Source: Escherichia coli
GTDB lineage: Bacteria > Pseudomonadota > Gammaproteobacteria > Enterobacterales > Enterobacteriaceae
Reading direction: 5' to 3' (one strand)
Length of the DNA: 64,000 nucleotides
NCBI RefSeq assembly: GCF_044324785.1
Contig: NZ_CP172127.1
A program made the translations under genes and the position numbers. Below the pieces are notes generated by a model, which worked only from the letters and a program-made list of their open reading frames with translations, ran no database searches and had not been told where the DNA came from. Below, piece by piece: positions 9,529 through 10,122 of the stretch (its first letter is position 1; every line of letters starts with the position of its first letter).

Positions 9529-9908
9529 CGCATAATCCGGGATACGCATTCAGCGATGACTGCATTTTCACCGGTTTTTACTGCATCCAGAAGTGACTCT
9601 TTAAATGGTGCGGGCCGGGGCTGCAGAAGGGTCGGCGTGGCATTGAGCAGACGGAGCGTTTTTTCCGTGAGGACGACATCAGCCGCTCCCACAGCCAGCA
9701 ACTGAGAGTAACGAATATAGCTGTTATCCCGAAGCCATATCAGCGTATCAATAAAATACCGGCACTTTTTCTGGTCGTGATCAACCTGGTCCGGGATATC
9801 GAAAAAACCAGAATAAATCAAAACCTGAGGTGCCGGATGCGTGTTCAGTAATCGGCAGAATATTTTGCCGGTGAGTGCATAAAAATCATCATTTAAGGAG
9901 TGCATCAT
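9504..9908 (-). CDS. hypothetical protein (134 aa), convergent with P-loop gene
   Basis: Only long ORF covering 9529-9906; 3-prime end overlaps P-loop gene by 25 bp; start codon overlaps start of the opposite-strand ORF. Confidence 0.35.
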   Translation of the reverse strand: MMHSLNDDFYALTGKIFCRLLNTHPAPQVLIYSGFFDIPDQVDHDQKKCRYFIDTLIWLRDNSYIRYSQLLAVGAADVVLTEKTLRLLNATPTLLQPRPAPFKESLLDAVKTGENAVIAECVSRIMRYVFNERK

Positions 9909-10122
9909 GAATCCCCGATTAACGTTAACAGAACATCAGCGCCGTGCTGAAGCAGTGAACAATGTTCTGGAAGATATTATCCGGTTACATCGCGGAGAAC
10001 TGAGTGTCTGTCGTGCCGCTTTTCATTTTCAGGGAATACAAAAGCAGTTTGATACTTCTGTTTTTGCAGAAGGTATTACTTATGCCCTGGACCGGATAAG
10101 GTCAGAAAATCGCCCCGGATAA
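9907..10122 (+). CDS. hypothetical small protein (71 aa)
   Basis: ATG 9907 preceded by AAGGAG at about -12 to -7; no recognisable domain. Confidence 0.3.
   Translation: MNPRLTLTEHQRRAEAVNNVLEDIIRLHRGELSVCRAAFHFQGIQKQFDTSVFAEGITYALDRIRSENRPG

What the first reader, a model, noticed from the sequence alone, without database searches (positions are those of the whole stretch)
9904..9910. Divergent ORFs with overlapping start codons, each with its own Shine-Dalgarno
The minus-strand 134-aa ORF starts at 9908 and the plus-strand 71-aa ORF at 9907, so the two ATGs overlap by 2 bp on opposite strands. Each has a plausible RBS lying inside the other ORF. Transcription of one would be antisense to the other's initiation region, a possible mutually exclusive switch.
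Basis: seen in the sequence. Interest (0 to 1): 0.4.

Follow-up and report, generated by a model that had tools for sequence, protein, structure and literature searches.

The report
Two phage genes sharing a CATG start
Two real prophage genes, one for a winged-helix protein and one for a small three-helix protein, start back-to-back on opposite strands at a shared CATG; this layout is conserved in several unrelated temperate phages, but whether it acts as an expression switch is untested.

Summary
In gtgCATCATGaat (9900-9912) the + ATG is at 9907 and the - ATG at 9908, with a second in-frame - ATG at 9905. Each Shine-Dalgarno lies in codons 2-5 of the other gene.

Both ORFs are real genes. The 134-aa protein belongs to an uncharacterised family (phrog_2266, about 40 distant full-length relatives) and is predicted to be a winged helix. 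The 71-aa protein (phrog_4490) is predicted to be a three-helix bundle, with relatives in Serratia, Salmonella and Pseudomonas.

A CATG with two open frames is not rare: 14 in the window, about 3 expected by chance. The significance lies in conservation. Seven lineages whose winged-helix proteins are 23-49% identical keep exactly this junction, in BcepMu-like, P2-like and lambda-like phages.

Here the pair lies in a 1.44-kb accessory island (8726-10167), between a conserved structured minus-strand RNA and the holin gene.

With no intergenic DNA, any leadered mRNA for one gene must start inside the other. The 5' ends of the two mRNAs must therefore be complementary across both ribosome-binding sites. 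Reciprocal interference is plausible but unproven, and I found no consistent promoters. The junction may equally be kept only because any indel would damage both SD-AUG spacings.

The parts
9906..9909 (.). Palindromic CATG that holds both start codons (+ ATG 9907-9909; - ATG 9908-9906)
   Evidence: The same CATG junction occurs in L003, L022, L024-L026, L027, L031, L141 and L142.
9504..9908 (-). 134-aa gene for a winged-helix protein of an uncharacterised phage family (phrog_2266). A second in-frame ATG lies at 9905.
9907..10122 (+). 71-aa gene for a small helical protein (phrog_4490), predicted three-helix bundle
   Evidence: phrog_4490, E 1.6e-52. Chain of similarity from E. coli to Serratia to L022 to Pseudomonas. 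Profile search finds 48 proteins. In the fused AF2 model this part forms three helices with pLDDT 83-95.
9895..9900 (+). Shine-Dalgarno AAGGAG of the 71-aa gene, encoded by codons 3-5 (His-Ser-Leu) of the 134-aa gene
   Evidence: Duplex energy -8.7 kcal/mol. GGAG or GAGG lies 5-9 nt upstream of the small gene in all seven lineages.
9912..9916 (-). Shine-Dalgarno-like GGGGA of the 134-aa gene, encoded by codons 2-4 of the 71-aa gene
   Evidence: Duplex energy -5.7 kcal/mol. It lies 3 nt from ATG 9908 and 6 nt from ATG 9905.
8785..9528 (+). 247-aa P-loop protein gene (phrog_3787), convergent with the 134-aa gene and overlapping its 3' end by 25 bp. Its C-terminal ~60 residues are related to the small-protein family.
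   Evidence: hhalign of residues 187-246 against small-protein profile A8, E 1e-4. BLASTP of the C-terminus against the Serratia 89-aa protein, 2e-9, and against the Pseudomonas 83-aa protein, 6e-5. A Pseudomonas small protein hits phrog_3787 at positions 170-226.
8726..10167 (.). 1.44-kb accessory island (247-aa, 134-aa and 71-aa genes), absent from many BcepMu-like relatives
   Evidence: In L035, L134, L086, L082 and L106, homology to the window stops at 8725 and resumes at 10168 with about 32 nt between. Other relatives carry different inserts at the same point.
10170..10320 (-). Conserved structured minus-strand RNA element with an upstream promoter-like block. It points into the island and, in relatives without the island, lies about 105 nt upstream of the holin ATG.
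   Evidence: Of its cells, 96.7% are paired, 15 pairs show compensatory changes, 0 of 500 shuffles reach the observed values, and many G-U/G-C alternations fit only the minus strand.

Best explanation
The two ORFs are genuine genes. They form a compact two-gene accessory cassette that moves between phages. The minus-strand gene encodes a winged-helix, probably DNA-binding, protein. The plus-strand gene encodes a small three-helix protein. The same cassette, with the same CATG start-to-start junction, occurs in BcepMu-like, P2-like and lambda-like temperate phages.

Shown: there is no intergenic DNA, and each Shine-Dalgarno lies in codons 2-5 of the partner gene.

Inferred from that geometry: an mRNA that carries the leader of one gene must begin inside the other gene. 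The two promoters therefore face each other, and the 5' ends of the two mRNAs are complementary over both ribosome-binding sites and both start codons.

Inferred consequence: reciprocal interference. This would combine promoter interference or polymerase collision with antisense pairing that hides or cleaves both initiation regions. The DNA-binding protein and its small partner would then tend to be made at different times or in different cells.

In this window the winged-helix gene has the orientation of the late (lysis) operon and lies downstream of that operon's conserved leader RNA. The 71-aa gene is co-oriented with the 247-aa gene and dam. A lysogen-versus-lytic split of expression is therefore possible (inferred).

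Once formed, the junction is also locked in place, because any indel would change the SD-AUG spacing of both genes.
For: Both genes are real.
- 134 aa: phrog_2266, 46 HMMER hits of similar length, confident winged-helix model.
- 71 aa: phrog_4490, homologues in Serratia, Salmonella and Pseudomonas, confident three-helix prediction.

The CATG junction is conserved in seven lineages whose winged-helix proteins are 23-49% identical.
- E. coli window, Serratia L003 and L022.
- P2-like phages L024, L025 and L026, including phage Midge, whose annotators marked both RBSs.
- L027 and L031, where the gene caller missed the small ORF.
- Pseudomonas L141 and L142, between the large terminase and the gpW/portal genes.

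A GGAG or GAGG SD on the antisense strand of codons 2-5 is seen in the lineages that have the partner gene. I did not see one at the L029 and L030 start regions, which have no partner (read from the start-region sequences printed).

The L142 cassette is 726 bp with only 1 nt and 40 nt of non-coding DNA at its two ends. The promoter of the winged-helix gene must therefore lie in the small gene or in a neighbouring gene.

The minus strand upstream of the pair is transcribed at least across the structured RNA.

Functional linkage: the winged-helix gene is flanked on its other side by a second gene carrying the small-protein domain.

E. coli haplotypes show only 1 variable site in 9833-9947, against about 9-12 expected.
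Against: I had no transcript data.

Consensus sigma-70 scans found no promoter at a consistent position in either direction in any lineage.

The low-variation stretch was chosen after seeing the data. A permutation test on the longest gap between variable sites gives only P = 0.10.

The orientation of the cassette relative to the flanking phage operons is not conserved. In Pseudomonas and in P2-like phages the small gene runs with its upstream co-oriented neighbours, whereas in this window the winged-helix gene runs with the late operon. No single read-through scheme fits all contexts.

The small proteins of the P2-like phages and of L027 are not demonstrably homologous to the 71-aa protein.

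Some family members occur without a partner gene (L021, L029, L030). Natural deletions or truncations of the winged-helix gene leave the small gene intact.

A protein-protein interaction between the two products is not shown. The fused model has pTM 0.58 and the tool returns no PAE.
Confidence: 0.5

Rival explanations
1. Compaction with no regulatory role. The cassette is simply as small as it can be. The small gene is expressed mainly by read-through from co-oriented upstream genes: the 247-aa gene here, the large terminase in Pseudomonas, and the RT or DinI-like genes in P2-like phages. The winged-helix gene is expressed from a weak internal promoter. The CATG junction persists only because any indel would spoil the SD-AUG spacing of both genes, so it is a frozen accident. 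Expression of the two genes is not mutually exclusive.
For: In most contexts the small gene is co-oriented with the gene beyond the winged-helix gene. The deletion variants L019 and L020 leave the 71-aa gene only 52 nt downstream of the 247-aa stop codon, which fits co-transcription. No embedded promoters were detected. Divergent overlaps are known to be rare because the start regions are heavily constrained (PMC2174442).
Against: Even with read-through, a transcript through 9504-9908 is antisense to the whole winged-helix gene, so some interference is hard to avoid. The cassette keeps its form in three unrelated phage backbones with different neighbours, which suggests it is expressed autonomously.
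Confidence: 0.35
2. There is no true overlap in E. coli. The 134-aa protein starts at the second ATG (9905), which has the better SD spacing, so the two coding sequences are separated by 1 nt. The back-to-back logic is otherwise unchanged.
For: GGGGA lies 3 nt from ATG 9908 but 6 nt from ATG 9905. The gene caller chose the second ATG in Serratia.
Against: Five other lineages have a single ATG that lies within the CATG. With M1 at 9908, the invariant Phe falls at residue 9, as in the Pseudomonas proteins.
Confidence: 0.4
3. One of the two ORFs is not a gene, that is, it is an antisense ORF artefact.
For: CATG sites with open frames in both directions are common in the window (14). E. coli variation in the 71-aa gene shows only a weak third-position bias (7/4/8 variable sites at codon positions 1/2/3). 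The PhiKM annotators did not call the 134-aa gene.
Against: Both ORFs match PHROG families. Both have distant full-length homologues. Both give confident structure predictions. Both frames stay open in lineages with little nucleotide similarity.
Confidence: 0.03
4. Both genes are transcribed as leaderless mRNAs from a bidirectional promoter centred on the CATG.
For: The start codons are exactly back-to-back. L022 has a -10-like GATAAT ending 1 nt before the ATG.
Against: Both genes have SD motifs at normal spacing in all lineages, which leaderless mRNAs would not contain. No -10 element lies at the right distance in most lineages.
Confidence: 0.03

Closest known systems
Face-to-face promoter switches of P2-like phages (P2 C/Cox with Pc/Pe; 186 CI/Apl with pL/pR). 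This comparison rests on my own knowledge and was not checked here.
   Same: Both have a divergent pair made of a DNA-binding regulator and a small protein. In both, the promoters must face each other, so the 5' transcript regions overlap and transcriptional interference is expected.
   Different: Here the intergenic distance is -2 nt, and both RBSs lie inside the partner's coding sequence. The pair is not the immunity switch: it lies in an accessory island that many relatives lack, and the phage has its own repressor and Ner-like pair at 11195-11822. The proteins match no Pfam family, and no promoters have been mapped.
Divergent (head-to-head) overlapping gene pairs in prokaryotic genomes
   Same: The start regions overlap on opposite strands, and the SD and start codon of each gene constrain the other gene. 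This is a recognised, rare class: 331 of about 15,000 overlaps in 58 genomes (PMC2174442).
   Different: Many catalogued cases are suspected start-codon mis-annotations. This one is supported by protein families on both strands and by conservation of the exact junction in seven lineages and three phage types.
MarR/PadR-type winged-helix regulators that are transcribed divergently from their target gene
   Different: There is no sequence membership in MarR, PadR or any other Pfam family. There is no intergenic operator region, and I found no conserved inverted repeat at the junction.
Phage morons and accessory-gene hotspots (for example the P2 gpA-gpQ defence hotspot, PMC9122126)
   Same: The pair lies in variable accessory loci: a hotspot between the late leader RNA and holin in BcepMu-like phages, and the gpA-Q hotspot in P2-like phages, next to a reverse transcriptase gene.
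   Different: There is no match to any PADLOC defence model. In Pseudomonas the cassette sits inside the head-gene operon rather than in a recognised hotspot.

Membership tests
Divergent overlapping gene pair | Two real protein-coding genes on opposite strands whose 5' ends overlap | tested here: met
   Both genes are supported by families and structure predictions. The starts lie at 9907 and 9908. Caveat: if ATG 9905 is the start used, the genes abut with a 1-nt gap.
Winged-helix (MarR/PadR-like) transcription regulators | Winged helix-turn-helix fold | tested here: met
Winged-helix (MarR/PadR-like) transcription regulators | Sequence membership in a curated family (Pfam or NCBIfam) | tested here: not met
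   No Pfam or NCBIfam hit for the protein, or for 32 family members. No significant sequence match in the PDB.
Winged-helix (MarR/PadR-like) transcription regulators | Sequence-specific DNA binding at an operator near its own gene | not testable with these tools
   No inverted repeat is conserved at the junction across lineages. EMSA or ChIP is needed.
DUF2513 (the name UniRef gives to the Serratia homologue P0012) | Match to the Pfam DUF2513 model | tested here: not met
   A Pfam scan of P0012 and of the window protein gave no family at E <= 0.1.
P2/186-type face-to-face promoter developmental switch | Convergent promoters whose transcripts overlap between divergent regulator genes | tested here: inconclusive
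   The geometry forces leaders to overlap if both mRNAs carry their SD. However, no consistently placed promoters were found, and I had no transcript data.
P2/186-type face-to-face promoter developmental switch | The pair is the phage's immunity (lysis-lysogeny) control region | tested here: not met
   The pair lies in an accessory island absent from many relatives. The winged-helix gene is deleted or truncated in some prophages. The phage's HTH repressor and Ner-like gene lie elsewhere.
Known anti-phage defence systems (PADLOC) | Match to a PADLOC protein model | tested here: not met
   No hits for the 134-aa or 71-aa proteins. The 247-aa protein gives only weak, non-significant hits.
Type II toxin-antitoxin module | Co-directional two-gene operon with a recognisable toxin or antitoxin fold | tested here: not met
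   The genes are divergent, and there is no toxin or antitoxin family match.
Known RNA families (for the neighbouring structured element) | Match to an Rfam covariance model, or a tRNA or tmRNA | tested here: not met
   Over 8000-12500, Rfam at E <= 1 gave only two chance snoRNA-like hits elsewhere. ARAGORN found nothing.

The most novel reading that the evidence does not exclude
The CATG-junction cassette is a self-contained, portable toggle. A winged-helix repressor-like protein and a small three-helix antagonist would be expressed from promoters embedded in each other's coding sequences. Their mRNAs would mutually occlude both ribosome-binding sites. Temperate phages of unrelated families would use the module to switch an accessory function, possibly together with the P-loop protein that carries the same small domain, between the lysogenic and lytic states.
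Probability: 0.2. Interest if true: 0.7.

Novelty: new variant of a known kind. Interest (0 to 1): 0.45.

Why it matters
Divergent gene overlaps are the rarest class of gene overlap in bacteria, and many are dismissed as annotation errors. This one is well supported: two protein families share a start-codon palindrome, and the junction is kept intact across three temperate-phage families.

If the forced complementarity of the two 5' leaders does produce anti-correlated expression, the roughly 620-730-bp cassette would be one of the most compact natural two-state gene circuits. It would also be an easy system for studying transcriptional interference and antisense control.

If it does not, the cassette is still a clean example of how dual SD-AUG constraints can freeze a gene junction over long evolutionary distances.

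The work also places the pair in a previously unrecognised accessory-gene hotspot of BcepMu-like prophages, which about 10% of complete E. coli genomes carry (555 of 5426). That hotspot lies next to a conserved structured RNA.

Tried and rejected
- Function by family search. Pfam, NCBIfam and PADLOC scans of the 134-aa, 71-aa and 247-aa proteins gave no assignment; PHROGs matched only families of unknown function.
- PDB sequence searches with profiles of both families found nothing significant. A weak RbpA hit (E 0.05) was ignored.
- Foldseek with the fused model found nothing significant.
- The fused winged-helix plus linker plus small-protein AF2 model was meant to test for a complex. It gave a confident small-protein fold but pTM 0.58 and no PAE, so I make no claim of interaction.
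- Promoter searches found no consistently placed promoter. I used the built-in consensus scan and my own PWM scan of eight loci from seven lineages.
- A search for inverted repeats (possible operators) around the junction in six lineages found none that is conserved. The palindrome at 9846-9877 lies in the codons for the conserved GKIFCRL motif, so coding explains it.
- E. coli population variation gives a low-variation stretch around the junction. This is suggestive only, because the window was chosen post hoc and the longest-gap permutation gives P = 0.10.
- The search for related loci with the family alignment failed because no stretch was conserved enough.
- Literature searches for the protein accessions and for overlapping divergent start codons found nothing specific.
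- Locus L007 (protein P0022) was discarded as a frameshift-ridden assembly.
- I considered that the 134-aa protein might be a Mu Mor/C-type late activator, because it lies just upstream of the lysis genes. I rejected this: it has no Pfam hit at all, so no Mor-family match either, and the gene is missing from many relatives.

Full report
**1. Observation**

The window reads gtgCATCATGaat at 9900-9912.
- The 71-aa ORF starts with ATG at 9907 on the + strand (9907-10122).
- The 134-aa ORF starts with ATG at 9908 on the - strand (9908-9504).
- The two start codons therefore share the palindrome CATG at 9906-9909.
- The minus ORF begins ATGATG, so a second in-frame start lies at 9905.

An AAGGAG lies 6 nt before the + ATG, with an anti-SD duplex of -8.7 kcal/mol. 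A GGGGA lies 3 nt before ATG 9908 and 6 nt before ATG 9905, at -5.7 kcal/mol. Each SD sits in codons 2-5 of the other gene.

By itself the pattern is not rare. The window has 14 CATG sites with frames of at least 60 codons open in both directions, against about 3 in Markov simulations. The case for significance has to come from elsewhere.

**2. Identity of the locus**

The window carries a BcepMu-like transposable prophage of E. coli.
- 555 of 5426 complete genomes match.
- Phage PhiKM, classified in Bcepmuvirus, is 96.5% identical.
- PGAP annotates both ORFs as hypothetical proteins.

The gene order is holin (-), 247-aa P-loop gene (+), 134-aa gene (-), 71-aa gene (+), dam (+), HTH repressor (-), Ner-like gene (+), then the transposase genes.

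**3. Both ORFs are genes**

The 134-aa protein:
- It matches phrog_2266 (E 6e-44).
- An exhaustive HMMER search found 46 proteins. About 40 are distant (27-39% identity), full-length and 125-150 aa long. They align with invariant F9, P25 and L59.
- AlphaFold2 gives pLDDT 85.
- It has no Pfam or NCBIfam membership.

The 71-aa protein:
- It matches phrog_4490 (E 1.6e-52).
- A chain of similarity links it to a Serratia 73-aa protein (E 1.5e-7), a 69-aa protein in L022 (a BcepMu-like prophage whose small protein resembles Salmonella proteins) and Pseudomonas 80-83-aa proteins.
- A profile search recovers 48 proteins.
- In a fused model it folds as a three-helix bundle with pLDDT 83-95.

**4. The junction is conserved**

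Every partnered relative of the winged-helix gene that I could place in context has its small partner at exactly the same CATG.

| Context | Loci |
|---|---|
| BcepMu-like, Serratia (GGAGGTCATCATG) | L003-L006 |
| BcepMu-like prophage, Salmonella-like small protein | L022 |
| P2-like phages of Klebsiella, Salmonella and E. coli, in the gpA-gpQ hotspot | L024-L026 |
| Pseudomonas lambda-like prophages, between large terminase and gpW/portal | L141, L142, L031 |
| Metagenomic contig | L027 |

Three further points.
- In L027, L031 and L141 the gene caller missed one member of the pair (the small ORF in L027 and L031, the winged-helix ORF in L141), but the open frame with its SD is there.
- The winged-helix proteins of the seven lineages share only 23-49% identity, and the bases flanking the CATG differ.
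- Three family members have no partner at the junction (L021, L029, L030), and I did not see an antisense SD in the L029 and L030 start regions (read from the sequences printed).

Divergent overlaps are the rarest overlap class: 331 against 12,737 co-directional overlaps in 58 genomes (PMC2174442).

**5. Context in this window**

Relatives L035, L134, L086, L082 and L106 are homologous to the window up to 8725 and again from 10168, with only about 32 nt between. So 8726-10167, which holds the 247-aa, 134-aa and 71-aa genes, is an accessory island. Other relatives carry different inserts at the same point.

Two kinds of natural variant damage the winged-helix gene while the small gene stays intact.
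- L019 and L020 have lost it after codon 18.
- L016 truncates it.

The C-terminal ~60 residues of the 247-aa protein, and the 89-aa protein that replaces it in Serratia, are homologous to the small-protein family. The winged-helix gene is therefore flanked on both sides by genes carrying that domain. This argues for a functional link between the two kinds of protein.

**6. A neighbouring RNA**

Just outside the island, at 10170-10290, lies a non-coding element conserved in about 57 distinct IMG/VR copies.
- Its consensus structure is 96.7% paired. Fifteen pairs show compensatory changes, and 0 of 500 shuffles reach the observed values.
- Many G-U/G-C and G-U/A-U alternations fit pairing only on the minus strand.
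- A conserved promoter-like block lies upstream. It includes TTTTCA-16-TACAAT at 10320-10293.
- It ends in GGUCGUUCUUUC.
- In relatives without the island it lies about 105 nt upstream of the holin ATG.

It is therefore a candidate leader of the late (lysis) operon. Minus-strand transcription that passes it would run antisense through the 71-aa gene and sense through the winged-helix gene. It matches no Rfam family.

**7. Mechanism**

Shown:
- There is no intergenic DNA between the two genes.
- Both SDs are embedded in the partner gene.
- The cassette keeps this form with different neighbours. In L142 it is 726 bp with only 1 nt and 40 nt of non-coding DNA at its ends.

Inferred:
- Leadered mRNAs must start inside the partner gene.
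- The promoters therefore face each other.
- The 5' ends of the two mRNAs are complementary over both initiation regions.

Reciprocal interference is the most likely consequence, and I give it 0.5.

The main rival, at 0.35, is that the junction is only locked by the double SD-AUG spacing constraint and has no regulatory role. In that view the small gene is expressed by read-through from co-oriented upstream genes.

Neither promoter scan found a consistent promoter, and no conserved operator was found. The low variation around the junction in E. coli (1 site in 9833-9947) is only suggestive.

**8. Comparison with known systems**

The arrangement works like the face-to-face promoter switches of P2 and 186 (my own knowledge), taken to an intergenic distance of -2. 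It is not the phage's immunity switch, and it belongs to no curated regulator family. It is best described as a new, well-supported variant of the rare class of divergent overlapping gene pairs, carried on a mobile phage accessory cassette of unknown function.

Noticed in passing
window 10170-10320 (minus strand): A conserved structured RNA element lies between the 71-aa gene and dam. It consists of a promoter-like block, a palindromic hairpin, an invariant GGUyGrCUCACAG-loop-CUGUG hairpin, and a strongly covarying GC-rich hairpin followed by GGUCGyUCUUU. About 57 distinct copies occur in IMG/VR BcepMu-like contigs. The G-U pattern fits only the minus strand. In relatives without the island it lies about 105 nt upstream of holin, so it is a candidate late-operon leader, attenuator or small RNA. 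It has no Rfam match.
   Followed up: partly
window 8726-10167: The three genes form a 1.44-kb accessory island at a variable hotspot between the late leader RNA and holin. Relatives have about 32 nt there, or different inserts: 880 bp in L107, 1050 bp in L078, and only a P-loop gene in L058.
   Followed up: partly
window 9343-9525 (C-terminus of the 247-aa gene); L003 5384-5653: The C-terminal ~60 residues of the 247-aa P-loop protein, and the Serratia 89-aa protein at the same position, are homologous to the small head-to-head protein family. The winged-helix gene is therefore flanked on both sides by paralogous small-domain genes.
   Followed up: partly
L019 and L020 (IMG/VR); L016/L112; E. 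coli SCU-105 (hit H81): Natural variants delete window 9535-9855, which leaves only 18 codons of the winged-helix gene, or truncate it to 40 aa. The 71-aa gene stays intact. The deletion joins at a short CGCA repeat.
   Followed up: partly
window 9504-9528: The 247-aa and 134-aa genes converge and overlap by 25 bp at their 3' ends. In L022 the equivalent overlap is 4 bp, and in Serratia it is 37 bp.
   Followed up: no
L024 and L026 (Klebsiella phage ST147-VIM1phi7.1), 3071-4307: In P2-like phages the homologous pair lies in the gpA-gpQ hotspot, next to a reverse transcriptase gene and an XRE regulator gene. Phage Midge has the pair without the RT gene.
   Followed up: no
L141 and L142 (Pseudomonas prophages), 3558-4283: The cassette is inserted inside the lambda-like head operon, between the large terminase and the gpW/portal genes. 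The winged-helix gene is antisense to that operon and ends 2 nt after the terminase stop codon.
   Followed up: partly
window 11195-11822: The HTH repressor-like gene (-) and the Ner-like gene (+) overlap head-to-head by 53 nt if the longest ORFs are taken (11686 against 11634). PGAP calls a shorter repressor of 366 nt, which removes the overlap.
   Followed up: no
L007 (ENA contig_2371): This related contig is full of frameshifts. Its 71-aa homologue switches into the +1 frame midway, so it is probably a low-quality long-read assembly and was not used.
   Followed up: no
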